Shown: one piece after another, positions 43,039-54,332 of the stretch
Position numbering within the stretch: the stretch's first letter is position 1
Layout: each line of letters starts with the position of its first letter
Source: Armatimonadota bacterium
GTDB taxonomy: Bacteria; Armatimonadota; Hebobacteria; Hebobacterales; Hebobacteraceae
Assembly: GCA_050010895.1 (NCBI GenBank)
Contig: JBEKKD010000001.1
Coordinates: 1-62,674 of the forward strand
Length of the DNA stretch: 62,674 bases
Reading direction: 5' to 3'
The notes under the pieces: model-generated
What the model saw: the letters and a program-made list of their open reading frames with translations, nothing else
What the model was told of the DNA's origin: nothing
Databases searched by the model: none
Position numbers and translations under genes: made by a program

Positions 43039-44058
43039 ATGGATGAGGGAACCGGCGGCGGGGGCGGGGGCCGGGCGCCGCGCTCGCAGTCTATCGATCT
43101 ATCGATCATCATCATCAATTGGAACACGGCCGATTACCTGGCCGGGTGCCTGGATTCCCTGGCGAACTGCGGCCTGGACGGGCTGTCCGCGGAAGTCTGG
43201 GTTATAGACAACGCGTCCACCGACGGCAGCGCGGACCTCGTCCGCAGTCGCTACCCATGGGTCCGTCTGGAGGCCAACGCGTCGAACCTCGGATTCGCCG
43301 CGGCGAACAACGCGGTGATGCGGAAGGCCGAGGGGCGCGTCTTCTTCCTGCTGAATGCCGACATGGTAGTTCCGCCTTCGACCACCGCGGCCCTGTTCTC
43401 CCGCATTGCCGCTGCCCCCGACGTTGGGGCCGCGGCCAGTCGCCAGGTAGACGCGCAAGGCAACACGCTGGAATCATGCGTGTTCGACTACATGGACGGC
43501 AGGATTCCGGGGTCGGTAGACCCGCCTCAGCCATCGGATGACCGAAAGTGGATCGAGGCCGCCTGGGTGTGGGGGTCGGGCATGATGGTGCGCCGGGAGG
43601 TGTTCGAGCGAATCGGCGGGTTCGACGAGAGCTTCTTCATGTACTACGAGGATCTCGAGTGGTGTTGGCGGATGCGGCGGGCGGGCTGGCGCGTGCGCTA
43701 CTGTGATGACGTCCACGTGCAGCACTTCGTCCGGCGCAGCACATCCCGAGTTCCCGCCCGGACGACGGCGACACGCCTGGTCGCCGGCGAACTCTTACTG
43801 ATGCAGCGCTTCATGTCTCCTCGGCGCTTCCGCAAATTCCTCGTCGGGAGGTTCCTCTACTCGCTTCGCGGCATCGCGTTCTACCGGGTGATGCTCGCGC
43901 TGGCGCCGTGCGAGAAATACCACACGAAGTATCTGCGGTATCTGACGAACGTGAGCGCCATCGCGATGCGAAGCCCGATCGCGCAGGAGCTGGGGCATCG
44001 CTGGTCGCGAGTTCTGGGCCGAGACAGGAGCCACCCGCCTGTGGTAGGAGGGAACTAG
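43039..44058 (+). CDS. glycosyltransferase family 2
   Basis: 339-aa ORF with LSIIIINWNTADYL...IDNASTDGS and the YYEDLEWCWR region, typical of rhamnosyltransferase-like GT2 enzymes. Confidence 0.85.
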   Translation: MDEGTGGGGGGRAPRSQSIDLSIIIINWNTADYLAGCLDSLANCGLDGLSAEVWVIDNASTDGSADLVRSRYPWVRLEANASNLGFAAANNAVMRKAEGRVFFLLNADMVVPPSTTAALFSRIAAAPDVGAAASRQVDAQGNTLESCVFDYMDGRIPGSVDPPQPSDDRKWIEAAWVWGSGMMVRREVFERIGGFDESFFMYYEDLEWCWRMRRAGWRVRYCDDVHVQHFVRRSTSRVPARTTATRLVAGELLLMQRFMSPRRFRKFLVGRFLYSLRGIAFYRVMLALAPCEKYHTKYLRYLTNVSAIAMRSPIAQELGHRWSRVLGRDRSHPPVVGGN

Positions 44059-47000
44059 GCGGAGCCGGAGACCTCTTCAGGTTTCTTGAGATCCCCTCGT
44101 CGAGCCGCCTTGCGCTCTTTGACCTGAGACATGAACGAGACGATCTTCGCGTCCCTGCTCGCATCCACAAACCCATCGTAGTCCAGGTTCAGGAACGGGA
44201 TATTGTCATGGTGCCGCCGGAACGCCTGCGACAGCATCGTCACCGTCATTCCGGGCATGCAGTTGAACGGGGCCACGCTGACGATCCCGTCCAAGTGCCG
44301 CTTCGCGAAATCGCGGGCCTTGCCCATGCTGCAGATGGCCTCGCCCCCGAAGGTCGGGTGAATGTAGCGCGAACCCGCTTCGATCAGCTCATCGGGCCCG
44401 ATGTCGTCGAACCCATCGAGGTACGGCAGCGTGGCGGTGAACAAGTGATGCTCGTCGCGGACTGCGATCCCGCTCATCAGCCGTCCGCCGAAGATGTCGC
44501 GCAGGTCCTCCCAGGCGCGTGAGTCCTCCCAGCGATCTGCCGCGAGCAGCGAGCCGATGCTGTTGCAGTAGCTGAAGAATTCAGTCGTGGGCGCCAGCCA
44601 CACCTCCGCGCCGGCCCGCTCAAGCTTGCGAATGATCTCCTGATTCGAGCCGTCGTGGATGCGCACGAAGAACTCACCGACCATGCCGATGATCGGGCGC
44701 GGCTCGGCGTCCGTGCGCCGGGGCACTCCGGCAAGATCGCGCTGGGCGCGGCGCAGGAGATCCTCCAGGGCGCGGGTGTGACGACCGGCGATCAGCCGAA
44801 GCCGGCCGGAGCTCGACGTGAGGATGCGGCGCTGGTGCGGCATCAGCTCGCACGCCTTCCGCAAGTAATGCTCGAAGATGGTGTCGCTGGTCCCCGCGCG
44901 AGCCTCGTACGGCCGGGTATGCAGGCGCATCTTGTCCAGCATGTCGTGCGCCAGGAATCCTGGCCAGGCCACGAGGAGGAAATCCATTCCCAGGCCGCCG
45001 TGCGCACTGCGATTGCCCAGGGCCACGATGTCAACGTCCTGGAGTCCCATCTTATCGAGGATGCGGCGCTGCATCATGCAGTACATTCCGAATCGGCATG
45101 GCCCCTCGGACTGCCCCTGGAAGAAGGCCTCTTTCGCGGGATCGAAGTTGGGCGCGTTGACACGTTCGAGGATGTCCTGAGTCGTGACCAGCATCGGCAG
45201 ACACACATCCTCGGAGATCGCCCGCCGTGCCAGATTCATCCCGGGGTCGGCCGACCTGGGCAGCGGTGCGGCGTCGATGCCCCATGCCTGCAGCGCGGCC
45301 GACAACATGTCCGCCGCTCCGGACGCATCGGGGATCCACAGCCGCTTGCTCCCTAGCTGCAGGATCGGGGTGTCGTCTGTCGTGAAGCCCGCGTGCGACC
45401 CCTTGCCGTTCCTGCCGGCGGCGGTGTCGGCGAACGCCTCCATTCGGGTGATAACGCCCGCGTCGGCCGTGTGCTCGTCTATCTGCATGACGTAGCACGG
45501 TTCACCGACCTCGTCCTTGAAGAACGGGTTTGCGAACGAGTCAGGGCCGCAGGCGAAGTAGGTGAGCACGACCGCACGCAGCCTGGGGTCTTTGGACACC
45601 AGGCGGGCCGCTGCAAGTTTTTTCTGGATCTGCCGGGAATACGCGTTCGACCAGTGGTCGGAGATGTCTTCGTCGCTCAACGGCAGAAAGTCGAGCGGAA
45701 TGGCGATGATCCCCAGGTCCTGGATCTTCTTTCCGATATCCATGTTGACCGCGGGGTCATAGTTTGTGTAGGGCCTGCCGACAACGATGAAGGCCCGCTG
45801 ATCCTCGCCCAGAGCCTCCATCACCCCTCGGCCCCGCGCCTCAACTTGCGCGCGAAAATCCCGCAGCGACTGCAGGCCGGCGTCGATCGCCAGCTCGATG
45901 TCCGGCCGCGACTTGCCCAACTGCCTGCCGATATCTCGGAACGCTCGGCGCAGGTGGCGGTCGCCCCGCCGGAAGAAGAACCGCGGACGGAGCAGAACCG
46001 GCCCGGACTCATCCAGATGCAGCGCGGCCGCGATCACCTCGGGCGCCGACATCACGTACGGACACGTGTGGCTCTGCCGGAACTTGGCATTCGGCTGCTC
46101 GGTATCGCAGACCCCGGGAAGGAAGATGTAGTCGACTCCCCGCTCGATGAGTTGGACCACATGCCCGTGTGCGACCTTCAGCGGGAAGCAGGGCTCGCCT
46201 GCGACCGCGTTGATCCCCTTCGTGATGATCTCTTTGCTCGATGGGTCGGATGGCAGTACACGCATCCCGAGGGTCTGGAAGAATGCACGGTACAGGGGGT
46301 AGTACTCCGCGAACATCAGGCCCCGCGGGATGCCTACGGTAGGCGCTCCCTCGGGCGCTTCGGCCTCTGTGCCTGCCATGAGCATCTGCTCGCGTTCCGC
46401 GAACAGATCCGGCAGTTGGTCGCCGAGACCGTGTTTGTGAGCGCCACTGTAACGCTCGCAACGATCGTTGTAGTAGTATTTTGGCCCGCCGTCGACCTGG
46501 AAGACGTTGACATCGCAGTGGTTTGCGCAACGGGCGCACTCGAACGACGAGACCTGGTACTGCCCCGTTGCGATGCGGTCGAATCCGCGGAACTTGCTCA
46601 CGGCCGGCCGCTGACGATAGGCGATCACAGCCGCACCCACCGCGCCGGTGATGTGCGGATATGGCGGCACCACGATGGGGCGGCGCAGTATTGTCTCGAA
46701 CGCTGCCACCATCCCTTGGTTGAAGGCGACCGCGCCCTGGAATACCACCGTCTCGCCGATCTCTCTGCTGGCGACATTCTTGTGCAAGTAGTTCTTCGCG
46801 CTCGCCAGACAGAGCCCCGCGCAGAGGTCCTCGATCGGCACGTTGTTCTGCTGGTAGTACACCGACGCCGACTCGGAGAACACCGTGCACGTCCAGTCCA
46901 GGTCGGGCGGCCGCGTGGCTTTCAGTGCCGTAGGGCCGAAATCGGCGATCGCCAGTCCCAGCCGGGCGGCCTGCTTTTCGAGGAACGCACCCGTGCCGGC

Positions 47001-48446
47001 CGCGCACGCTTTGTTCATCTCGAAATCGACGATCACGTCACCTTCGAGACGGATGTACTTCGAATCCTGGCCGCCGATCTCCAGGATCGACTCGACCTCC
47101 GGCAGGAATGCTCTGGCGCCCTGCGCCTGGGTGGTGATCTCGTTCTTGATGACGTCGGCGCCAATGTAATCGCCTGTAAGGTACCGGCCGGAGCCGGTGG
47201 TCGCGGCAACTATCTGGCCGATGGTGAAACCAGCGTCCTCCACCTGACGCTGAATCTGCCCGATGGTGTCCCGGACTGCCGCCAGCGGATCGCCGTCGGT
47301 TCGCCGGTAGAAGCTGGCGAGGATGCGAACCTTGCCGCCAACCTCCGTGACCAGCGCCGCTTTCGTGCTGACCGAGCCAATGTCCACACCCAGAGCTGCC
47401 AGCGCGATCGTGCGAGGCAGGTCGTCGTTCCCGCCATCGCCCTCGAGCGTGCGCGACTGGTCGCGTACCAGCGGCTCAGTGCCCGCGTACTCCAGCGGCC
47501 TCTCGATCTGAGCGTCCAGGGCCGCCAGTGCCTGCACCAGGTCTATGTCGGACTGGGCCCGCAGAGCCGCCCCTATCGCCGCGATGGTGAGGTTGTGCGG
47601 TGGCACGACGATCTGCTCGGGTGCCAGGCGGAGCTCCTTTGCCAGGTACTTCCGGACCGCTGGGTTGAGAGAAACCCCTCCGATGAACAGGACCTGATCC
47701 TCGAACGCTTTGCCGCGCGCAATCGCCGATCGGTAGTTCCGGCAGATCGCGTGGTGAATGCCGGCAGCGATGCGCTCCCGAGGCGTGCCTTTCTGATACA
47801 GGTGGACGATGTCGGATTCCGTGAAAACGGCGCACCGGCCTGAGAGCGAGGCGGGATTCTCCGTCTCGTCCGCCACTCTGGCAAACTCGGCGATCGAGCC
47901 GTAGTTCAGCCGCCGGGACATGTGGTCGAGGAACGACCCGCTGCCGGCAGCGCACTTGCTGCTGAGATTCGCGTCGTCGAGGAGCAGCCTCCCCGATGCT
48001 TCGTCCCAAGCGAACCGGAGGTACTTCTGGGTCTCGCGGCCCATTTCGATGACGGTCCGCGTGTCCGGGTAGAGCAGGTTGCATGCGGCCGCGACGGCGT
48101 TGGGCTCATCGACGGGTTCGACGCCAAGCAGGTGCGCAACCTGAGGCGCGCCGCTGCCCGTGAGCCCGACTCGCGCCGCGGACACGCCTGTCTCGCGGAC
48201 CTGCTGGAGGATCTCGCGGACCCGCTCGAACGGCTTCCCCCTGACCGGGACGACCGCCAACTGCTGCACCCGCGCGACACTGTCGGGCCTTTCACGGTCG
48301 GCGTTCCCACCTACGAGGACCGCCTTGATCGTGTCAGCGCCGATATCGATCCCCAGCCGCGGCGCGCGCGCGGCGCCTTGCAGCGGTTCATCTTTGGGCG
48401 GGGCGGTTGGAAGAGGTCCGCTCTTCGGGTACTGAGTCATTGACAT
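44055..48446 (-). CDS. giant fusion protein: two BcrAD/BadFG-type (2-hydroxyacyl-CoA dehydratase activase-like) ATPase modules + DUF2229/dehydratase-subunit-like domains
   Basis: The ORF track gives 44055..48563, and the likely start is MSMTQYPKS (ATG 48444-48446). It has two ASKHA-fold modules (LGIDIGADTIKAV... and LGVDIGSVSTKAA...), each carrying the activase cluster-ligand motif (SSKCAAGSGSFLDHM and MNKACAAGTGAFLEKQ). A Cys-rich linker (FECARCANHCD) follows, then about 800 aa resembling 'CoA enzyme activase' uncharacterised domains and HgdA/B-like domains. Confidence 0.8.
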   Translation of the reverse strand: MSMTQYPKSGPLPTAPPKDEPLQGAARAPRLGIDIGADTIKAVLVGGNADRERPDSVARVQQLAVVPVRGKPFERVREILQQVRETGVSAARVGLTGSGAPQVAHLLGVEPVDEPNAVAAACNLLYPDTRTVIEMGRETQKYLRFAWDEASGRLLLDDANLSSKCAAGSGSFLDHMSRRLNYGSIAEFARVADETENPASLSGRCAVFTESDIVHLYQKGTPRERIAAGIHHAICRNYRSAIARGKAFEDQVLFIGGVSLNPAVRKYLAKELRLAPEQIVVPPHNLTIAAIGAALRAQSDIDLVQALAALDAQIERPLEYAGTEPLVRDQSRTLEGDGGNDDLPRTIALAALGVDIGSVSTKAALVTEVGGKVRILASFYRRTDGDPLAAVRDTIGQIQRQVEDAGFTIGQIVAATTGSGRYLTGDYIGADVIKNEITTQAQGARAFLPEVESILEIGGQDSKYIRLEGDVIVDFEMNKACAAGTGAFLEKQAARLGLAIADFGPTALKATRPPDLDWTCTVFSESASVYYQQNNVPIEDLCAGLCLASAKNYLHKNVASREIGETVVFQGAVAFNQGMVAAFETILRRPIVVPPYPHITGAVGAAVIAYRQRPAVSKFRGFDRIATGQYQVSSFECARCANHCDVNVFQVDGGPKYYYNDRCERYSGAHKHGLGDQLPDLFAEREQMLMAGTEAEAPEGAPTVGIPRGLMFAEYYPLYRAFFQTLGMRVLPSDPSSKEIITKGINAVAGEPCFPLKVAHGHVVQLIERGVDYIFLPGVCDTEQPNAKFRQSHTCPYVMSAPEVIAAALHLDESGPVLLRPRFFFRRGDRHLRRAFRDIGRQLGKSRPDIELAIDAGLQSLRDFRAQVEARGRGVMEALGEDQRAFIVVGRPYTNYDPAVNMDIGKKIQDLGIIAIPLDFLPLSDEDISDHWSNAYSRQIQKKLAAARLVSKDPRLRAVVLTYFACGPDSFANPFFKDEVGEPCYVMQIDEHTADAGVITRMEAFADTAAGRNGKGSHAGFTTDDTPILQLGSKRLWIPDASGAADMLSAALQAWGIDAAPLPRSADPGMNLARRAISEDVCLPMLVTTQDILERVNAPNFDPAKEAFFQGQSEGPCRFGMYCMMQRRILDKMGLQDVDIVALGNRSAHGGLGMDFLLVAWPGFLAHDMLDKMRLHTRPYEARAGTSDTIFEHYLRKACELMPHQRRILTSSSGRLRLIAGRHTRALEDLLRRAQRDLAGVPRRTDAEPRPIIGMVGEFFVRIHDGSNQEIIRKLERAGAEVWLAPTTEFFSYCNSIGSLLAADRWEDSRAWEDLRDIFGGRLMSGIAVRDEHHLFTATLPYLDGFDDIGPDELIEAGSRYIHPTFGGEAICSMGKARDFAKRHLDGIVSVAPFNCMPGMTVTMLSQAFRRHHDNIPFLNLDYDGFVDASRDAKIVSFMSQVKERKAARRGDLKKPEEVSGSA

Positions 48447-48733
48447 GCTCAAGGCTGACTGTAGTGCAGGAGATGTCAGACTTCGGCACAGGCGAAGCTT
48501 CCGCTCGCCCGGCGCCGGCCGCCTGCGGAACGCGAGATTCGCCGATGCCGTGCGGAGCGACATATGGAATGATACTCAGCCATCTCTCGGCTGTCAACCG
48601 AGGTTTGTTGCTCGGGCGCGGCAGCACCGATCGCGAATACTGCCGCGATAGCAGGCCGCGGCCCTGCAGGTTACTGCGCGATCCAGGCAGAACTATACGT
48701 CGTCGGCTTCCAGCTACCCGCAGAGGGGCATCC

Positions 48734-49423
48734 ATGAGCGACCACGGTCTGGTTATTCGCGATCTCCCGCAACAGGAACGGCCGCGCGAGCGGATGCAGC
48801 AATACGGCCCGGAGGCGCTGTCGAATGCCGAGCTTATTGCCATCCTGCTCCGTGTGGGCTCAAAGGGCGAATCGGCGGTCAGAATGGCAGAAAGGCTGCT
48901 CAGCGAGTTCGGCGGCCTGGTCGGCCTCACCCGTGCCCGCATACCGCAACTCTCAGCGATCCCCGGCATCGGTCTGGCGAAGGCGACTCAGATCAAAGCG
49001 GCGTTCGAGTTGGGCCGCCGCCTCGCCACCACCAGTGATGGCCCGCGGCCCACTATCAACAACGCGTGGGACGCGGCCAAGCTGGTCATGGAGGATCTCC
49101 GGTACCAGCAGCAGGAGCGCTTGGTCGCCATCTTCCTCGACACGCGCAACCAGGTGATCCGCGTCCACACGGTCTCGGTTGGGACCCTGACAGGCAGTCC
49201 GGCCCATCCGAGGGAGATATTCAGAGAAGCTCTCGCTCATGGCTCGGCGAATCTGATCGTCTGCCATAACCACCCATCGGGCGACCCCAGTCCAAGCAGA
49301 GACGACATCGCCCTCACCGCGCGGCTGAAGCAGGCAGGTGACCTGATGGGGGTCACTCTGCTCGATCACATCATCATCGGTGACGGCCGCCATATCTCGC
49401 TCAAGGAGATCGGGAAGCTATAG
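48734..49423 (+). CDS. radC: RadC-family JAB/MPN-domain protein
   Basis: The ORF track gives 48407..49423. The start is placed at MSDHGLVIRDLPQQERPRERM. It has a helix-hairpin-helix region (IPGIGLAKATQIKAAFELGRR) and the JAMM motif VCHNHPSGDPSPSRDD. Confidence 0.9.
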   Translation: MSDHGLVIRDLPQQERPRERMQQYGPEALSNAELIAILLRVGSKGESAVRMAERLLSEFGGLVGLTRARIPQLSAIPGIGLAKATQIKAAFELGRRLATTSDGPRPTINNAWDAAKLVMEDLRYQQQERLVAIFLDTRNQVIRVHTVSVGTLTGSPAHPREIFREALAHGSANLIVCHNHPSGDPSPSRDDIALTARLKQAGDLMGVTLLDHIIIGDGRHISLKEIGKL

Positions 49424-49448
49424 CCCTGCAGGAGTGAGTGGCGGCGTG

Positions 49449-50744
49449 TCAGCATTCCTCGAGTTCGCCGTGGTTCTGACCGCGGCCCTTGAGGATCATG
49501 AGTCTGAGTACGGCCAAGAGCTGTGCCGGAGCCTGTATGGTGCCATGGTTCACGTAGACCCCGATCTTCTGTAATAGCAGCTCTGGAGTGACGTCCTCGG
49601 CGAATGTCAGCTCCCCGTGGTTCTCCAGGTGCGAGCCGTCATCCATCAGCTCCAGTTCGGCGCGCCCCAGCATCATCTCATCACGGTTCTCGACGACACC
49701 CGCGGACTCGGCGCTGACCTCCACAAACGAGCCGAAGTTCTCAGTACACCGGTCCTCCAGCGCGGCCAGCAGTCGGGCGGGGCCGATGGTCTTGCCGTAG
49801 TTCGTGTACTTCGCGATCTTCCGGAACAGCAGCTCCTCGGGCACGTCGGCGGCGATGATGGTCTCGCCGTAATTCTCATACGACGAATCATCGCGGATGC
49901 GCTCCAGGAATGCCCGCGTCAGCATGCGCTTTCCGTAGTTGGACACCTTTTTGCCCTCGGCCGCTGCTTCCTCCGCACTCGTCGCCTCGAACTGCCCCAG
50001 GTTGGTTGGGCAGCGCGTCTTCAGCAGGTTCAGCACCGCCTCCGGGCCCGACGTCTGCCCCACGTTGTGGTAGGCCGCGATCTTCGTGCCCACCATTTCC
50101 TCGGTGACGTCCACCGAGAACGTCGTCTGACCGATGTTCACGTAGGTGGTGCCGTCGTCGAGCCGGGAGAGGTAGTCGGGCGTGACGCTGGTCTGCCCGA
50201 CAGAACGCACCACCGCGCCCACCGAGTCGGGGAGCACGATCGTGATGCCGGTGATCTCGAGCTTGCCGAACATGGCGCCAATGACACTCTCGCAGGCCAC
50301 CACGATGCCCACCATACGCAGGTCATCGAACTTCTCCCCGATCAGCGCCGCGGGGACATCAGGCCTGATGAACGCGTTGCCGACGACCATCACCTTCTGG
50401 CCCGATGGCATCCCCTCGGCCATCGCTCTGGAGATGGTGATGTCCGGCTGTACGATGACCCGGAGGTCGGAGGGGGCCACCACTATTGACCCGGCGCTTT
50501 CCACAGACACATTCGCGAGCGCGGCGCTGTTCTTCTCGTCCAGCAGTATGATGCCCGCGGACTTGATCGACTCGATTTGTGCGACTTGCTCTGCTGGAAC
50601 GCCGCGCAGGTCGAGCACGCCCGCCGACTCGATCCGCCGACTAGGAATCCCGCGGATGACTCCCGCGCTCTCGCTCGTCGCCGCGCGGAGCATACTCTCT
50701 TTCTCGACTTCGTTCTCTTCGTTCATCTCACTCTCCCCATTCAT
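49449..50744 (-). CDS. orphan acidic repeat protein (431 aa), no recognisable family
   Basis: The ORF track gives 49449..50894. The start is placed at MNGESEMNEENE (ATG 50742-50744), which forms an ATGA overlap with the upstream small ORF. No signal peptide or TM helix. It has N-terminal x-SAG-x mini-repeats and three C-terminal repeats of about 75 aa. Confidence 0.5.
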   Translation of the reverse strand: MNGESEMNEENEVEKESMLRAATSESAGVIRGIPSRRIESAGVLDLRGVPAEQVAQIESIKSAGIILLDEKNSAALANVSVESAGSIVVAPSDLRVIVQPDITISRAMAEGMPSGQKVMVVGNAFIRPDVPAALIGEKFDDLRMVGIVVACESVIGAMFGKLEITGITIVLPDSVGAVVRSVGQTSVTPDYLSRLDDGTTYVNIGQTTFSVDVTEEMVGTKIAAYHNVGQTSGPEAVLNLLKTRCPTNLGQFEATSAEEAAAEGKKVSNYGKRMLTRAFLERIRDDSSYENYGETIIAADVPEELLFRKIAKYTNYGKTIGPARLLAALEDRCTENFGSFVEVSAESAGVVENRDEMMLGRAELELMDDGSHLENHGELTFAEDVTPELLLQKIGVYVNHGTIQAPAQLLAVLRLMILKGRGQNHGELEEC

Positions 50745-50977
50745 TGTCTGTACAGCCCGGCTGAGCGACTCCGGTTCGCCCAACTCGACCTGATGCTCGC
50801 AGGCCGTATCCTCGCGGTGGTGCGGATCATAGCTGCCATGAAGAACGCCCACGCCTGCGCCTCGCCACGCGCCCGTGCCGTGAACCCATCCCACAGCGCG
50901 TCCTTCTCGGTCTCGCTCAGGGCGAGGCCGGCGCGCAGCGCCGTTGACAGCGCCTGATCGATGTCCTCAGCTCTCAT
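50741..50977 (-). CDS. small ORF (78 codons) coupled to the ECF sigma gene; possible unconventional anti-sigma/partner protein
   Basis: ATG 50975-50977 overlaps the sigma stop (ATGA). By hand count, G/C dominates third positions in the first ~55 codons. The frame stays open upstream to 51094, so the true start is uncertain. No zf-HC2 motif and no clear TM helix. Confidence 0.35.
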   Translation of the reverse strand: MRAEDIDQALSTALRAGLALSETEKDALWDGFTARARGEAQAWAFFMAAMIRTTARIRPASIRSSWANRSRSAGLYRQ

Positions 50978-51558
50978 GCGACACTCCCGCGGCGCTTCGC
51001 GCCGCACGCTCCACCGCGGCGCTTCCCGCCGCATGCTCCACCGCGGCCGGCAGCAGGCTTCGGCGAAGCCGCAGCCGCTCCGGTCGGGGCCCACTGCCCC
51101 AGGCTATCTGCGAGGACGTGCCTGCACTCCGACAGTCGTCGCCGCACGGAACCCTCCGGAACGCCCAGCACTTCCCCGATCTCGCGGCTCGTCATGTCCT
51201 GCAGATACCGCATGACCACCATCTCCCGGTCTGCCTCGTCGAGCTGCATCAGGGCGCTCATCACGTCCATCCGCAGATCCGCTTGATTGCCGCCCCCCGG
51301 GTGGTGCGCCGGGAGAGCGTGGACAGGAAATGCCGCCTGCCGCCGCCATACGTCAGTCGCCAGGTTGCGCATGGTCTGCAGCAGCCAGGCGCGCTGGGCC
51401 GGAGGTTCCGCGACTGAGAGCGCTTCGAAGTGCCGCCAGGCCCGCAGGAAGGTCTCCTGGACAATGTCCTCGGCCTGCCACTGATCCCGGAGCCGGGCGA
51501 AAGCCATGGCATGGACGAGTTGCACATTGACTCGGTAGAAGGACTCGAAGTCGCTCAT
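50974..51558 (-). CDS. RNA polymerase sigma factor, ECF (sigma-70 group 4) family
   Basis: 194-aa ORF with region 2 (AEDIVQETFLRAWRHF) and region 4 HTH (DREMVVMRYLQDMTSREIGEVLGVPEGSVRRRLSECRHVL). It has a ~40-aa Gly/Ala/Arg-rich C-terminal tail containing a tandem 9-aa repeat. Confidence 0.85.
   Translation of the reverse strand: MSDFESFYRVNVQLVHAMAFARLRDQWQAEDIVQETFLRAWRHFEALSVAEPPAQRAWLLQTMRNLATDVWRRQAAFPVHALPAHHPGGGNQADLRMDVMSALMQLDEADREMVVMRYLQDMTSREIGEVLGVPEGSVRRRLSECRHVLADSLGQWAPTGAAAASPKPAAGRGGACGGKRRGGACGAKRRGSVA
50991..51044. repeat. tandem 27-nt direct duplication inside the 3' end of the ECF sigma ORF
   Basis: ggcgcttcgcgccgcacgctccaccgc (50991-51017) is followed by ggcgcttcccgccgcatgctccaccgc (51018-51044), with 2 mismatches. 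It is in frame and gives GGACG(G/A)KRR twice in the sigma tail. Confidence 0.85.
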
Positions 51559-51575
51559 TGCCGTCCTGATATAGG

Positions 51576-51600
51576 AACGAATGAGAGCCTGGAAGTGTTC
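51576..51600 (-). promoter_or_regulatory. candidate ECF-type promoter (GAAC-N17-CGTT) upstream of the ECF sigma gene
   Basis: The minus strand reads cgcGAACacttccaggctctcattCGTTcctatatcaggacggcaATG. The spacing fits the common ECF consensus GGAAC-N16-17-CGTT, but the -10 element is only 17 nt from the ATG, leaving a very short leader. Confidence 0.3.
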
Positions 51601-51699
51601 GCGGGATGTGCGACGGACTCAGGATGCCGACCGTAGCCAGCATCTCCTCAGAGCAGGCCCGTCGCCCGTCGGTCCGACCTGGTGTGGACGTACCGGCGG

Positions 51700-52980
51700 C
51701 TATCCGGCGGCCACAACACTCAGCGACGCGAACTTGATCGCCGGGGAATAGGTGGAGTACGACCACTCCGGCTCGGAGCCGATCGCCTCGATTCGCGGCA
51801 GCGCCTTGTATACATTGCCCGCCACCATCGCGTCTTTCACGCGGCCCACGATTTCACCGTTTTCGATCTTGTAGCCCAGGGCGATGTTAACCGAAAAATC
51901 GCCATTGATGACGTTGCCCTGTCCGAGTCCGAGCACCTGCTCTACGATGACGCCCTCTTTCGTGCCTCTGACCATCTCGTCGAACGAGACGTCACCAGGC
52001 GCCACGACCGTGTTGGAGGCTCCACAGCCGGGGCCGTTCCCCGTGCTGCGGGCGCCGGCTTTGGAAGCGGTCTCGAGGTCATAGAGGAACGCCGATAGAA
52101 CACCGCTGCGGATAATCTCATTCCGCTGCCTGGGGACGCCCTCTCCGTCATACGGCGCGCTCTGGGGTGCGAAGTCGAGCGTTCCATCATCGGCAAGCGA
52201 GAACCCCGGCGCCGCGATGGGCTCCCCCAGCCTGTGGGCGAGGGGAGAGTCGCCCTTGAGGACGTTCTTGCCATTGGTCCCCATGAGAAGCGGCCCCAGA
52301 ATGACCTGCATACCGCGGGGAGTGAAGATGACCGGCATCTCCTTCGTCGCCAGATCGGCGGTGCGCTCGGAACGGCGGAATTCGACGATCGCGGCGTCTG
52401 TCAGCTCTCGTACATCGAGGGTTTTCGATCGCCAGTAGTGCAGCTTGCCCACGAACAGCATATCGGTCCCGCGGATCAGCAGGCCGGAGACATGCCCGAC
52501 GTGGGTGCTGTAATCCGCGCTCACGTCCAGGCCGCTGGAGTTGATGAGGCGGCCCCTCGAAACGACCCATGCCGATTCGGCCGAGGTCTTGATCTCCTGG
52601 TTGTAGGACTTGATGCGTTCCAGCATCTCCCCACCCGCTGCCACGAGTTCATCGCGGGATATGCGCTCCACCTGCGGATCATACGTCTGGACAGGCGCGC
52701 CGGGCGCAGGCCCTGGGAAGTCGAATCGCGCCTCGCTGCCGAACTCGGCCAGCTCGATCGCGCGAGCCACCGCCGACTCCGCCTCGCTTTCATCGGTAGC
52801 CCTGCTGACCCCAACTCTGTCATCGACGATGACCCGCACCGTGAGATCCAGCGACTGAGAGGCGCTGACCCGCTTCAGCTTGTCGTCCTCATACTCCGCC
52901 GACGACATGCGCTCGTCGTGCATGACGATCTCCGCGGCCCGCGCTCTCTTCAGCGCGAGTTCGAGTGCTCTCTCGATCAT
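51700..52980 (-). CDS. pmbA: TldE/PmbA-family protein (non-catalytic partner of TldD metalloprotease)
   Basis: 426-aa ORF with TldD/PmbA-family architecture and no HExxxGH motif. It overlaps the upstream tldD stop by 4 nt. Confidence 0.85.
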   Translation of the reverse strand: MIERALELALKRARAAEIVMHDERMSSAEYEDDKLKRVSASQSLDLTVRVIVDDRVGVSRATDESEAESAVARAIELAEFGSEARFDFPGPAPGAPVQTYDPQVERISRDELVAAGGEMLERIKSYNQEIKTSAESAWVVSRGRLINSSGLDVSADYSTHVGHVSGLLIRGTDMLFVGKLHYWRSKTLDVRELTDAAIVEFRRSERTADLATKEMPVIFTPRGMQVILGPLLMGTNGKNVLKGDSPLAHRLGEPIAAPGFSLADDGTLDFAPQSAPYDGEGVPRQRNEIIRSGVLSAFLYDLETASKAGARSTGNGPGCGASNTVVAPGDVSFDEMVRGTKEGVIVEQVLGLGQGNVINGDFSVNIALGYKIENGEIVGRVKDAMVAGNVYKALPRIEAIGSEPEWSYSTYSPAIKFASLSVVAAG

Positions 52981-54332
52981 TGGCGACCTCCCACGGTGAC
53001 GCCCTGTATGCGGACATGCGGGCTGCCGATCCCGACGGGCAGAGGCGACTGGCCGCCCTTGCCACAGCCGCCTCCACCATCCGCCCAGGCGAGATCGTCT
53101 GCGACCATGTCGATGTTCTTCAGTGTCTCGAAGACGTTGCCTGTGAGAACGACATCGCGCACCAACTCAGCGACACGGCCGTCGCGGATCATGTAGCCAT
53201 AGGCCGCGCTGAAGGTGAACATCTCCATCATGGTTTGGCCGCCGATCATGTCCAGAGCATAGAGACCCAGCCGCACGTCCCGTATCAGATCGTCGAAGGC
53301 GGCGGATCGCGGTTCGATAAAGGTGTTCGCCATGCGCACGATAGGCGGGAAACGCCACGTCAGCGCACGCGCGTTGCCGGTCACGCTCTCACCCATCTTG
53401 GCCGCGGTCTCCCTGCTGTGCAGACGGCCCACGAGGACACCGTCCCTGATCAGGTAGTTCTTCCGAGTGCGCACGCCTTCGTCATCGAACGGGTGACTCC
53501 CGCGGCCGCCCGGCAGAGAGCCGTCATCGACGATACTGAGAGCGCCCGAACCGAACTGCTTGCCCAGCACCATCAGCTCTTTCATCTTCTCGTTTTCGTA
53601 CACGAAGTCGGATTCGCTGAGATGGCCGAATGCCTCATGCGCGAACACGCCGCCGAGCTTCTGGTTGAGGATGACGGTGTAGACGCTGCCCTGCACCTGC
53701 GGCGCGGCCAGCAGATCGGCCGCGCGCTGCGCCGCCGCCGCCGCCTTACTCTCGAGCCCGAGCGCAACCTCGAATCCGGCGGCACGCCCCGCACTCTCGT
53801 GAGCGCGCTGGACGAGGTCGCCCTCGCGTGCCACCGCGCCCAGCGAGACCACCACGTCGGGACGCGTCTCCTCGAAGTAGCTGCCTTCGCTGTTCGCGAA
53901 GTGGACCTCCCGGTACGCGTCTCGGTACGATGTCTGCGTCGTGTGGATTCCCCGCACGGCGAGCATCAGCTCATTGCACTGCTCAGTCACCTGCTTCTTC
54001 TCCGACAGGGCGACTCCACGGAAGTCCCGCAGCATCGGCGGCGCAGGTATGATTTCCTCGATCCTCTCGACAGCGGCCAACTCGGTCTTCTCGTGCCCCA
54101 CCAGTCGGGCGCAGGCCACTGCCTCGTTCACGCGCGCGCGAAGGTCGGCGATATCGTTGAAGGTGACGACGCCCCAGCCGCCTCTGACGACCGCCCGAGC
54201 CGTCCCGCCCAGTGAACTGGAGGACGAGATGCGATCTATCTCGTGGCCCCGGAAGCCGATCTCAGTCGTCTGCGCCCGCTCGATCCTGATCTCAGCGTAA
54301 TCCGCGCCGCTGCGACGCAGCGCTTCTTCCAT
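52977..54332 (-). CDS. tldD: TldD-family zinc metalloprotease
   Basis: 451-aa ORF. It contains the HExxxGH zinc motif (FAHEAFGHLSE) and the conserved C-terminal region GGCGKGGQ. Confidence 0.9.
   Translation of the reverse strand: MEEALRRSGADYAEIRIERAQTTEIGFRGHEIDRISSSSSLGGTARAVVRGGWGVVTFNDIADLRARVNEAVACARLVGHEKTELAAVERIEEIIPAPPMLRDFRGVALSEKKQVTEQCNELMLAVRGIHTTQTSYRDAYREVHFANSEGSYFEETRPDVVVSLGAVAREGDLVQRAHESAGRAAGFEVALGLESKAAAAAQRAADLLAAPQVQGSVYTVILNQKLGGVFAHEAFGHLSESDFVYENEKMKELMVLGKQFGSGALSIVDDGSLPGGRGSHPFDDEGVRTRKNYLIRDGVLVGRLHSRETAAKMGESVTGNARALTWRFPPIVRMANTFIEPRSAAFDDLIRDVRLGLYALDMIGGQTMMEMFTFSAAYGYMIRDGRVAELVRDVVLTGNVFETLKNIDMVADDLAWADGGGGCGKGGQSPLPVGIGSPHVRIQGVTVGGRQ

What the first reader, a model, noticed from the sequence alone, without database searches (positions are those of the whole stretch)
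49449..51558. ECF sigma factor translationally coupled to a small ORF and a 431-aa orphan repeat protein
Three minus-strand ORFs are chained by two ATGA start/stop overlaps. The sigma stop at 50974-50976 overlaps the next ATG at 50975-50977. The small-ORF stop at 50741-50743 overlaps the next ATG at 50742-50744. The sigma factor has clear region 2 and region 4 motifs. The slot normally held by a membrane anti-sigma factor is taken by a 78-codon ORF that has no H-x3-C-x2-C zinc motif and no convincing TM helix. That ORF is followed by an acidic, soluble-looking 431-aa protein that I cannot place in any family. This is my best candidate for an undescribed regulatory module in the window, consisting of a sigma factor plus unconventional soluble partner(s).
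Basis: partly seen in the sequence, partly recalled or inferred. Interest (0 to 1): 0.7.

Follow-up and report, generated by a model that had tools for sequence, protein, structure and literature searches.

The report
ECF sigma with unannotated soluble partners
An alternative sigma factor gene in an uncultured Armatimonadota bacterium sits in one operon with a tiny helical protein and an acidic repeat protein of an unannotated family that lies next to a sigma factor of this type in three gene arrangements, including in cultured Bacillota, so it is probably an unrecognised kind of soluble sigma-factor regulator, although binding has not been tested.

Summary
Three minus-strand genes run in series: an ECF sigma factor (50974-51558), a 78-aa ORF (50741-50977) and a 431-aa repeat protein (49449-50744). 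The sigma/small-ORF ATGA overlap is conserved in relatives. The second ATGA is probably not the start that is used; ATG 50726 has its own Shine-Dalgarno sequence and is the invariant Met.

The 431-aa protein is not an orphan. It belongs to an unannotated family of at least 245 cluster representatives. They are acidic and soluble, and the model is a beta-hairpin/helix solenoid with no Pfam, NCBIfam or PDB match.

All 18 distinct informative stand-alone loci place the solenoid gene beside a same-strand ECF sigma gene, in three arrangements:
- sigma-small-solenoid (8 loci, Armatimonadota-type)
- sigma-solenoid (7 loci, including Natribacillus and Caldanaerobius)
- solenoid-sigma (3 loci)

In the first two arrangements the sigma genes share one upstream ECF-type promoter, AACACT-N14-CGT.

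The same domain replaces the sensor domain of BlaR1-type M56 proteases paired with BlaI. Its repeat unit also occurs with SHOCT-like domains next to a DUF2089 regulator.

The small ORF family has 28 members. All are stand-alone, two-helix proteins with no TM segment; the window protein has no Cys or His.

Most likely this is an autoregulated ECF module whose cognate soluble regulator or sensor is the solenoid, with a lineage-specific small adaptor or anti-sigma. Binding is untested.

The parts
51577..51600 (-). ECF-type autoregulatory promoter candidate, GAACACT-N14-CGT (-35 AAC, -10 CGT), about 20 nt upstream of the sigma ATG
   Evidence: CGAACACT and CGT are invariant in the alignment of six Armatimonadota loci. 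It is the only copy in the window, with 0.11 expected by chance. Exact AACACT-N14-CGT sits upstream of sigma in every type A and type B locus that has upstream DNA, except L012, which has AACAGT.
50974..51558 (-). ECF (group 4) sigma-70 family factor, 194 aa
   Evidence: Pfam Sigma70_r2 and Sigma70_r4_2; TIGR02937 above its cutoff. It is 52-58% identical to the sigma of five related loci and 29-31% identical to the sigmas paired with distant solenoid homologues.
50987..51047 (-). 27-bp tandem repeat (2.3 copies) inside the sigma 3' end, encoding a Gly/Arg/Cys-rich C-terminal extension (RGGACGGKR repeated)
   Evidence: TRF score 108. The roughly 30-aa extension is present only in the window and L009; other relatives are 164-165 aa.
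50741..50977 (-). 78-aa basic (pI 11.1) two-helix soluble protein whose start overlaps the sigma stop (ATGA); candidate adaptor or small anti-sigma
   Evidence: Conserved in 8 loci. The family has 28 proteins of 69-131 aa, none fused to another domain. W29 and W43 are invariant; L10, E39, A42, F46, P59 and A60 are nearly so. No TM. AF2 gives helix 3-18 plus helix 22-76, pLDDT 75.7, pTM 0.36.
50731..50738 (-). Shine-Dalgarno GGGGAGAG serving the probable true start (ATG 50726-50724) of the solenoid gene
   Evidence: Read directly from the sequence. Met7 is invariant. Relatives have their own SD and a 10-30 nt gap.
49449..50744 (-). Acidic (pI 4.7) soluble beta-hairpin/alpha-helix solenoid protein, 431 aa from ATG 50744 or 425 aa from ATG 50726; candidate cognate regulator or sensor of the sigma
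   Evidence: AF2 pLDDT 89.4, with residues 1-25 disordered. No Pfam, NCBIfam, PDB or Foldseek match. Family of 245 or more representatives. Homology to the 400-aa sigma-linked family: hhalign probability 100%, E 4.9e-42.
50472..50666 (-). Solenoid unit U0 (residues 27-91, partial unit)
   Evidence: AF2 secondary structure; unit alignment.
50220..50471 (-). Solenoid unit U1 (residues 92-175)
49968..50219 (-). Solenoid unit U2 (residues 176-259); end of the roughly 260-aa core shared by all family members
   Evidence: U2 is 41% identical to U3 and 37% to U4. The core alone makes up the 250-270 aa members.
49707..49961 (-). Solenoid unit U3 (residues 262-346); extra C-terminal repeat
   Evidence: U3 is 49% identical to U4. 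Members of about 345 aa have one extra unit and members of about 440 aa have two.
49452..49706 (-). Solenoid unit U4 (residues 347-431); extra C-terminal repeat

Best explanation
This is an autoregulated three-gene ECF sigma operon. The sigma transcribes its own operon from the AACACT-N14-CGT promoter. The acidic solenoid protein is the sigma's evolutionarily conserved soluble partner. Most likely it is a cytoplasmic sensor-type anti-sigma, or sigma regulator, of a structural class not yet recognised. It would hold the sigma inactive and release it when the solenoid binds a signal, either a ligand or a protein. The 78-aa basic two-helix protein, translationally coupled to the sigma, is an accessory specific to the Armatimonadota-type lineage. 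It could be an adaptor bridging sigma and solenoid, or a co-anti-sigma.

Shown: gene structure, the conserved promoter, the conserved sigma-solenoid linkage across three gene orders, fold class, solubility, and reuse of the domain at the sensor position of BlaR1-type proteins.

Inferred: physical binding, the direction of regulation, and the signal.
For: (1) Linkage. All 18 distinct informative stand-alone loci put the solenoid gene next to a same-strand ECF sigma.
- Type A, sigma-small-solenoid: window, L009, L006, L007, L002, L004, L005, L014.
- Type B, sigma-solenoid with overlap or a gap of up to 14 nt and no small ORF: L010, L012 (Natribacillus halophilus protein), L013 (Caldanaerobius fijiensis protein), L016/21/22, L017/18, L019, L023.
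- Type C, solenoid-sigma, overlapping (shown for L026) or within a few nt: L025-L027.
The solenoid families are homologous over their full length (hhalign probability 100%, E 4.9e-42).

(2) The sigmas of types A and B are only 29-35% identical. Even so, they carry the same upstream motif with exact spacing, AACACT-N14-CGT. This points to one ECF clade that has co-inherited the solenoid partner.

(3) The position directly after and coupled to the sigma gene is the canonical anti-sigma position (established knowledge; reviewed in PMC7826278 and PMC8999054).

(4) The core domain occupies the C-terminal position after the last TM of BlaR1-type Peptidase_M56 proteins. In P0042 the gene is preceded by an overlapping BlaI (Penicillinase_R) gene. 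That is the sensor position of another signal-transduction system.

(5) The repeat unit also occurs with SHOCT-like domains, next to a DUF2089 HTH regulator in L004, and partly matches the C-terminal part of Pfam RHH_8.

(6) The solenoids are soluble and uniformly acidic, pI 4.2-5.0, while the sigma (pI 9.3) and the small protein (pI 11.1) are basic.
Against: - No interaction evidence of any kind exists.
- The solenoid has no resemblance to any known anti-sigma domain.
- In M56 fusions the domain should be extracytoplasmic, by analogy with BlaR1 topology, whereas here it has no signal peptide. The same domain would therefore have to work on both sides of the membrane.
- Conserved neighbours of ECF sigmas can be targets rather than regulators. 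The ECF41 neighbour genes are an example (my own knowledge).
- The small ORF sits in the classical anti-sigma slot in type A loci, so it rather than the solenoid could be the sigma binder.
Confidence: 0.45

Rival explanations
1. Partner-switch variant. The 78-aa two-helix protein is the real anti-sigma, a short soluble NepR/CnrY-like class II type. The solenoid is the sensor or anti-anti-sigma that sequesters it when a signal is present.
For: - The small ORF occupies the anti-sigma slot and is translationally coupled to the sigma in all 8 type A loci.
- AF2 predicts two helices with no globular core (pLDDT 75.7, pTM 0.36). This is typical of proteins that fold on a partner, as class II anti-sigmas do (my own knowledge; NepR disorder is noted in PMC8999054).
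- The charges are opposite: small protein pI 11.1, solenoid pI 4.7.
- Several type B loci have a different 63-64 aa ORF behind a second copy of the sigma-type promoter immediately downstream of the solenoid gene. This could be an analogous third component.
Against: - Type B and type C loci keep the sigma-solenoid linkage with no small ORF between them.
- The small ORF family is confined to 28 close-lineage proteins.
- It has no similarity to NepR, CnrY or any Pfam or PDB entry.
- Homology between it and the 63-64 aa type B ORFs is not evident.
Confidence: 0.25
2. The small protein and the solenoid are outputs of the sigma, co-transcribed effector or stress proteins, not regulators. The sigma would be controlled in some other way, for example transcriptionally or by an unlinked factor.
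For: - They lie in the same operon behind an autoregulated promoter.
- They have no recognisable anti-sigma domain.
- Some ECF groups have conserved neighbouring target genes rather than anti-sigmas (my own knowledge of ECF41; non-canonical regulation is reviewed in PMC8999054).
Against: - Linkage is maintained in three different gene orders with tight or overlapping junctions over large phylogenetic distance. This is more typical of stoichiometric partners.
- The domain recurs at the sensor position of BlaR1-type transducers and beside other transcription regulators.
- No catalytic or structural-effector family signature was found.
Confidence: 0.25
3. The small ORF and/or the large ORF are chance open frames in GC-rich DNA, or the remnant of a frameshifted membrane anti-sigma gene.
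For: GC-rich DNA gives many long spurious ORFs. Fifty ORFs of at least 50 aa overlap the 6 kb listed.
Against: - Both are conserved at the protein level across divergent loci, including a lower-GC relative, L014.
- The AF2 model of the large protein has pLDDT 89.4.
- No member of the small-ORF family is fused to a TM or extracytoplasmic domain.
Confidence: 0.02

Closest known systems
Canonical ECF sigma / class I anti-sigma pairs (e.g. RpoE-RseA, SigW-RsiW; soluble ZAS types SigR-RsrA, RpoE-ChrR)
   Same: An autoregulated operon in which the sigma gene is followed by, and translationally coupled to, its partner gene. The promoter is of ECF type (AAC -35, CGT -10). ChrR-type partners are soluble and carry a separate sensor domain.
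   Different: No anti-sigma domain is detectable and there is no HxxxCxxC motif or TM helix. The conserved partner is a 250-440 aa beta-hairpin/helix solenoid that matches no Pfam, NCBIfam or PDB entry.
EcfG-NepR-PhyR partner switch (ECF15) and CnrH-CnrY-CnrX (class II anti-sigma plus separate sensor)
   Same: A three-component logic: a sigma, a very small helical protein of about 60-95 aa, and a larger sensor or antagonist protein. The small protein is predicted to lack an independent fold.
   Different: There is no sequence or profile similarity to NepR or CnrY. No PhyR-like sigma mimic, receiver domain or histidine kinase is in the operon. CnrY and CnrX are membrane and periplasmic proteins, whereas both proteins here are soluble. 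Relatives of types B and C lack the small protein entirely.
BlaI/BlaR1 (MecI/MecR1) signal transducers
   Same: Relatives of the solenoid core are the C-terminal domain of Peptidase_M56 proteins encoded after an overlapping BlaI-family gene. That is the position of the BlaR1 sensor domain.
   Different: The window protein has no M56 domain and no TM helix. The sensor domain of true BlaR1 is a penicillin-binding transpeptidase-like fold, not this solenoid.
Leucine-rich-repeat (LRR) solenoids
   Same: A tandem beta-alpha repeat of about 21 residues forming an elongated solenoid. The best, though non-significant, Foldseek hits are plant LRR receptor ectodomains.
   Different: Foldseek E is only 6e-3 with TM-score 0.16. 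There is no LRR Pfam hit. The beta element is a roughly 10-residue hairpin centred on a conserved Gly/Asn-x-Gly rather than a 3-5 residue strand, and there is a higher-order unit of about 84 aa.
Pfam PF17723 RHH_8 and the SHOCT-like/DUF2089/LiaG-like (DUF4097) proteins
   Same: The roughly 84-aa repeat unit partly matches the C-terminal 40-75 positions of RHH_8. The 400-aa relatives P0062, P0068 and P0081 exceed the cutoff. The unit is also fused to SHOCT-like domains and to regions with weak similarity to LiaG.
   Different: The window protein scores 21.4 bits against a cutoff of 25.4, and only on the non-RHH part. It has no ribbon-helix-helix, SHOCT or LiaG-like region.

Membership tests
ECF (group 4) sigma-70 factors | Only the sigma-2 and sigma-4 domains are present, with no region 1.1 or 3 | tested here: met
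   Pfam Sigma70_r2 covers residues 8-75 and Sigma70_r4_2 covers 97-143, with nothing else. TIGR02937 scores 83 bits against a cutoff of 42.9.
ECF (group 4) sigma-70 factors | An autoregulatory promoter with an AAC-containing -35 and a CGT-containing -10 upstream of its own operon | tested here: met
   GAACACT-N14-CGT lies at 51577-51600. It is conserved in position and spacing in all type A and type B loci that have upstream DNA; L012 has AACAGT. Use by this sigma is inferred, not shown.
A named ECF subgroup (NCBIfam equivalogs/subfamilies such as SigE-fam_strep, SigW, SigM) | Score above the curated cutoff of the subgroup model | tested here: not met
   The best subgroup hit is TIGR02983 at 96.9 bits against a cutoff of 141.55; all others are far below their cutoffs. 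The same holds for the type B sigmas. Assignment to an ECF Hub group could not be tested.
Class I anti-sigma domain / ZAS anti-sigma factors (small ORF) | An N-terminal four-helix ASD detectable by profile (zf-HC2, RskA and similar) and, for ZAS, an HxxxCxxC motif | tested here: not met
   No Pfam or NCBIfam hit at E<=10 for any of 11 members. The window protein has no Cys or His.
Membrane-anchored anti-sigma factors (small ORF) | A single TM helix after the cytoplasmic sigma-binding domain | tested here: not met
   The maximum KD19 score is 0.2-1.46 in 29 members. The L014 homologue is hydrophilic throughout.
Class II anti-sigma factors (NepR/CnrY-like) (small ORF) | A short protein of about 60-95 aa with two helices that embrace sigma-2 and sigma-4 | tested here: inconclusive
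   AF2 gives two helices (3-18 and 22-76) with low pTM of 0.36. This is compatible, but there is no sequence or profile similarity, Foldseek gave 0 hits, and sigma binding could not be modelled.
Leucine-rich repeat proteins (solenoid) | The LxxLxLxxN/C consensus detected by LRR profiles, and the LRR horseshoe fold | tested here: not met
   No LRR Pfam hit. The Foldseek best hit is HAESA LRR at E 6.3e-3, TM 0.16.
Pfam PF17723 RHH_8 (solenoid) | Score above the gathering threshold, including the N-terminal ribbon-helix-helix | tested here: not met
   21.4 bits against 25.4; the match covers only profile positions 81-118 of 119.
BlaR1/MecR1 Peptidase_M56 sensor-transducers (solenoid) | A multi-TM M56 zinc-protease domain with HExxH | tested here: not met
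   Absent from the window protein. It is present only in fused relatives P0034, P0036, P0041, P0042, P0048 (Pfam) and P0115 (HELIH motif read, TM pattern).
Sigma-linked solenoid family (defined here) | Full-length homology to the 250-440 aa acidic beta-hairpin/helix proteins, encoded adjacent to a same-strand ECF sigma gene | tested here: met
   phmmer and hhalign homology. Adjacency in 18 of 18 informative loci.

The most novel reading that the evidence does not exclude
The beta-hairpin/helix solenoid is a new structural class of soluble anti-sigma or sensor module. It is the cognate regulator of a cross-phylum ECF clade defined by the AACACT-N14-CGT promoter. The same module would serve as a general signal-sensing domain plugged into at least three other regulatory chassis: BlaI/BlaR1-type M56 proteases, SHOCT/DUF2089 regulators and RHH proteins. 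In Armatimonadota a 70-78 aa helical protein would add a third layer that works like a partner switch.
Probability: 0.35. Interest if true: 0.75.

Novelty: new variant of a known kind. Interest (0 to 1): 0.6.

Why it matters
ECF sigma factors are one of the largest bacterial signal-transduction families. The 2021 reclassification states that soluble anti-sigma factors can only be recognised when they resemble known ones, and that other soluble variants probably exist (PMC7826278). This locus leads to a concrete candidate. It is an unannotated family with a confidently predicted fold that has no significant PDB match. The family is always linked to an ECF sigma gene (a shared promoter motif unites the sigma-first arrangements) and is present in cultivable Bacillota, where it can be tested genetically. 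The same domain sits at the sensor position of BlaR1-like proteases, which suggests a reusable sensing module whose ligand is unknown. If confirmed, it would add a new anti-sigma class, give orthogonal sigma/regulator pairs for synthetic biology, and assign a function to several hundred hypothetical proteins.

Tried and rejected
- Complex modelling: sigma + (GGGGS)x5 linker + small ORF, as a paired alignment of 5 loci. No interface test was possible, and model coordinates are not exposed.
- Foldseek of the solenoid model against PDB: nothing at E<1e-3; the top hits were LRR ectodomains at TM 0.16. Foldseek of the small-ORF model: 0 hits.
- PDB sequence-profile searches for both proteins: only noise at E around 1.
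- PADLOC defence models: no hit for the small ORF or the solenoids; the sigma had only a weak CARF3 match (E 0.0033). An anti-phage reading was not supported.
- Literature: 'ECF sigma' + 'Armatimonadetes' gave 0 papers, PF17723 gave 0, and RHH_8 gave only irrelevant papers. The ECF reclassification paper and the review of non-canonical ECFs do not mention this family. The supplements of PMC7826278 are not held, so the ECF Hub group could not be determined.
It was repeated with 5 sequences.
- Context look-ups of P0039, P0053 and P0079 landed on contigs of 1-1.7 kb. Only L014 was informative.
- A TM reading of the small-ORF hydrophobic stretch (AWAFFMAAMI) was rejected. It is below threshold in all members and hydrophilic in L014.
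- A TM reading of the solenoid's KD peak (1.73 at MVGIVVACESVIGAMFGKL) was rejected. The segment contains charged residues and is modelled with pLDDT above 95 as part of the solenoid.
- Sigma-70-type promoter and intrinsic terminator scans of 49300-51800 found none.
Full report
**1. What is in the sequence**

Three minus-strand ORFs lie in series at 49449-51558.

The first, 50974-51558 (194 aa), is an ECF sigma factor.
- Pfam Sigma70_r2 covers residues 8-75 at 56 bits.
- Sigma70_r4_2 covers residues 97-143 at 49.5 bits.
- NCBIfam TIGR02937 'sigma70-ECF' scores 83 bits against a cutoff of 42.9.
- No named subgroup model reaches its cutoff.

Its TGA (50976-50974) overlaps the ATG (50977-50975) of a 78-aa ORF (50741-50977). 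The TGA of that ORF (50743-50741) overlaps an ATG (50744-50742) that opens a 431-aa ORF ending at 49449.

The window is from an Armatimonadota MAG. The small ORF is NCBI 'hypothetical protein ABSD48_00220'.

**2. Two corrections to the observation**

(a) The second ATGA is probably not the start that is used.
- A second ATG at 50726-50724 is preceded by GGGGAGAG (50738-50731).
- Met7 is an invariant column in the 34-sequence family alignment.
- In L006, L007, L002, L004 and L005 the third gene begins 10-30 nt after the small ORF and has its own strong SD.
- In the 91%-identical L009 the gene call starts at the Met7 equivalent, 15 nt after the small-ORF stop, although the M1 ATG is retained there.

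By contrast, the overlap between sigma and the small ORF is conserved. It takes the form ATGA, GTGA, ATGCGTGA or TGATG in every relative.

(b) The 431-aa protein is not an orphan. It has 33 close homologues and 245 cluster representatives at E<=1e-3 in an exhaustive phmmer search.

**3. Anatomy of the large protein**

- AlphaFold2 with the 34-sequence alignment gives a confident model: mean pLDDT 89.4, with residues 1-25 disordered. The pTM of 0.56 shows the mutual orientation of the units is less certain.
- The model is a regular succession of roughly 10-residue beta-hairpins, each centred on a conserved Gly or N-x-G, and short helices.
- These sub-repeats of about 21 residues group into units of about 84 aa: U0 27-91 (partial), U1 92-175, U2 176-259, U3 262-346 and U4 347-431. 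U2-U4 are 37-49% identical to each other.
- Family members of about 260, 345 and 440 aa differ by zero, one or two extra C-terminal units.
- The protein is acidic (pI 4.7), as are all relatives checked (pI 4.2-5.0).
- It has no signal peptide or TM helix. The single hydropathy peak (1.73) lies in a strand-helix element modelled with pLDDT above 95 and contains charged residues.
- No family reaches a cutoff in Pfam or NCBIfam. Only the C-terminal third of PF17723 RHH_8 matches, at 21.4 bits against a cutoff of 25.4.
- A PDB sequence-profile search gives only noise. Foldseek against PDB gives nothing below E=1e-3; the best hits are plant LRR ectodomains at TM-score 0.16.
- It is therefore a beta-alpha solenoid reminiscent of LRR proteins but not a member of that family, and it has no solved relative.

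**4. Anatomy of the small protein**

- A profile search finds 28 proteins of 69-131 aa. All are stand-alone, none is fused to a TM or sensor domain, and there are no hits between E=3e-11 and E=1.
- W29 and W43 are invariant. L10, E39, A42, F46, P59 and A60 are nearly so.
- The window protein has no Cys or His.
- The central hydrophobic stretch never reaches TM hydropathy: maximum KD19 is 0.2-1.46. It is replaced by a hydrophilic sequence in the L014 homologue.
- AF2 predicts helix 3-18 plus one long helix 22-76, with pLDDT 75.7 and pTM 0.36. That is a protein without an independent globular fold.
- There are no Pfam, PDB or Foldseek matches.

**5. Comparative genomics, the decisive evidence**

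Type A, sigma-small-solenoid.
- It is found in the window, L009, L006 (=L003), L007 (=L001, L008), L002, L004, L005 and L014.
- Flanking genes partly differ between these loci.
- The organism titles are Armatimonadetes, 'Candidatus Hebobacterum abditum', or unclassified MAGs.

Type B, sigma-solenoid.
- Proteins of about 400 aa, only 21-28% identical to the window protein in the exhaustive search, are homologous over their full length. hhalign of the two family alignments gives probability 100%, E 4.9e-42, over 368 columns.
- They lie immediately after a 151-165 aa ECF sigma, overlapping it or within 14 nt (junctions read for L010, L012 and L013), with no small ORF between.
- The loci are L010/L011, L012 (the Natribacillus halophilus protein), L013 (the Caldanaerobius fijiensis protein), L016/21/22, L017/18, L019 and L023.

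Type C, solenoid-sigma.
- Shorter homologues are followed by an ECF sigma gene of a different sequence type in L025-L027.
- The ORFs read for L026 and L027 are about 250 and 300 aa. The start codon overlaps the solenoid stop in L026.

In total, 18 of 18 distinct informative stand-alone loci have an adjacent same-strand ECF sigma. L015, L020, L024 and the P0079 contig were too short to judge.

**6. A shared promoter**

- Upstream of sigma, the six Armatimonadota loci share an invariant CGAACACT...CGT about 20 nt before the ATG. In the window this is 51577-51600.
- It is the only copy in 62.7 kb, with 0.11 expected by chance.
- The exact pattern AACACT-N14-CGT occurs upstream of the sigma gene in every type A and type B locus that has upstream DNA. 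L012 has AACAGT instead.
- The type A and type B sigmas are only 29-35% identical.
- This is an ECF-type promoter (AAC -35, CGT -10; established knowledge). It implies autoregulation and a common promoter specificity, that is, one ECF clade that has kept the solenoid partner.
- In L017/18, L019, L020 and L021/22 a second copy lies just downstream of the solenoid gene, in front of a 63-64 aa ORF with a conserved C-terminal IL..W....RLL motif. This is a candidate regulon member or third component.

**7. Other architectures of the domain**

- The roughly 240-aa core is the C-terminal domain of 622-881 aa BlaR1-type proteins. It follows the last TM helix and a Pro/Ala-rich linker. P0034, P0036, P0041, P0042 and P0048 hit Pfam Peptidase_M56. 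P0115 shows the HExxH motif and the same TM pattern.
- P0042 is preceded by an overlapping BlaI-family (Penicillinase_R) gene. By analogy with BlaR1 (established knowledge), that is the extracytoplasmic sensor position.
- The C-terminal repeat unit also occurs after SHOCT-like domains (PF22746). In P0066 and P0083 it is followed by a long repetitive Gly/Asp-rich C-terminal region, which in P0083 shows weak similarity to LiaG.
- In L004 such a SHOCT-repeat protein, together with a DUF2089 Zn-ribbon/HTH/SHOCT regulator, lies directly downstream of the three-gene module.
- The recurring theme is association with transcription-control systems.

**8. Interpretation**

The position after and coupled to an ECF sigma gene is the canonical anti-sigma position. 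The solenoid, not the small ORF, is the partner conserved across all three arrangements.

I therefore favour the solenoid as the cognate soluble regulator or sensor of this ECF clade, with the small basic helical protein as an Armatimonadota-type accessory such as an adaptor or co-anti-sigma (confidence 0.45).

A partner-switch variant, with the small protein as anti-sigma and the solenoid as sensor or anti-anti-sigma, is a serious rival (0.25).

So is the possibility that both proteins are outputs rather than regulators (0.25).

Chance ORFs or a decayed membrane anti-sigma are excluded by conservation (0.02).

None of the binding steps is shown.

One unresolved tension remains. The domain would be extracytoplasmic in M56 fusions but cytoplasmic here.

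**9. Comparison with what is known**

- The review of non-canonical ECFs lists the recognised soluble anti-sigma types: ZAS proteins (ECF11, 12, 14, 270, 271), NepR (ECF15), CfrX (ECF102), ECF121-like proteins (ECF125, 127) and Asp23-family proteins (ECF286, 292) (PMC8999054). None corresponds to this family.
- The ECF reclassification paper notes that soluble anti-sigmas unlike known ones would have been missed (PMC7826278).
- I found no paper mentioning the family. NCBI names the members 'hypothetical protein'.
- I could not check whether ECF Hub already numbers this sigma clade.

**10. Verdict**

The mechanism is inferred.

In kind this is a new variant of a known system: an ECF sigma plus a cognate partner, where the partner is a probably new soluble partner family with a fold that has no solved relative.

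Interest is 0.6. The main reasons are that the family spans at least two bacterial phyla, is testable in cultivable Bacillota, and may be a reusable sensor module.

Noticed in passing
window 50987-51047 (-), inside the sigma gene 3' end: A 27-bp tandem repeat (2.3 copies, 94% match) encodes RGGACGGKR-RGGACGAKR. It gives this sigma a roughly 30-aa Gly/Arg/Cys-rich C-terminal extension, present only in the window and the 98%-identical L009. Other relatives stop at 164-165 aa. Its function is unknown. It also lies just upstream of the coupled start of the small ORF.
   Followed up: partly
L017 3874-4123; L019 4195-~4400; L020 1192-1445; L021/L022 3805-4058: In several sigma-solenoid (type B) loci a second exact copy of the AACACT-N14-CGT promoter lies just downstream of the solenoid gene. 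It sits in front of a 63-64 aa ORF with a conserved C-terminal motif (ILKIWREHREQLIKQRLRLL / ILREWSGHMARLLRVRMHLL). This is a candidate regulon member or a third component. No homology to the Armatimonadota small ORF is evident.
   Followed up: partly
L025 2501-3538; L026 2456-3825; L027 2084-3505: An inverted arrangement. A solenoid homologue (about 250 aa in L026, about 300 aa in L027) is followed by an ECF sigma gene of a different sequence type (RRRFWLFAIAKNI region); the start overlaps the solenoid stop in L026. The AACACT-N14-CGT motif is not found in these loci.
   Followed up: partly
L004 2843-3785: Directly downstream of the three-gene module lie two further genes: a DUF2089 regulator (Zn ribbon + HTH + SHOCT-like) and a 177-aa protein made of a SHOCT-like domain plus one solenoid repeat unit. 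This is another pairing of the repeat unit with a transcription regulator.
   Followed up: partly
P0034, P0036, P0041, P0042, P0043, P0048, P0115 (metagenome proteins); P0042 contig genes 2611-5669: BlaR1-type Peptidase_M56 membrane proteins carry the solenoid core as their C-terminal domain after the last TM helix and a long Pro/Ala linker. P0042 follows an overlapping BlaI (Penicillinase_R) gene. The signal these would sense is unknown.
   Followed up: partly
L007 3110-4054 (-); L006 1-882 (-); L013 2344-3141 (+): An AP_endonuc_2 (xylose-isomerase-like TIM barrel) gene lies just upstream of the sigma operon in two Armatimonadota loci and in the Caldanaerobius fijiensis locus. This may be coincidence, because the family is common.
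   Followed up: no
window 51700-54332 (-) and 48407-49423 (+): The operon is flanked upstream by a TldD/PmbA-like pair (426 aa and 451 aa, with overlapping stop and start) and downstream by a convergent RadC/JAB-like gene whose stop is 25 nt from the solenoid stop. The window genes are assigned by collinearity with L009 and L006, where Pfam calls PmbA_TldD and RadC; the window ORFs themselves were not scanned. The same flanks occur in L009 and L006 but not next to the module in L007.
   Followed up: no
window 44055-48563 (-): A very long (1502 aa) ORF. Its counterpart in L009 hits BcrAD_BadFG (two ATPase modules) and DUF2229, which looks like an activator/dehydratase-type fusion. Not examined further.
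   Followed up: no
L015 925-1215 (-): A Cas2 gene lies 37 nt downstream of a 266-aa solenoid homologue (P0053) on a 1.5-kb contig. The contig is too short to tell whether a sigma gene or a CRISPR locus is nearby.
   Followed up: no
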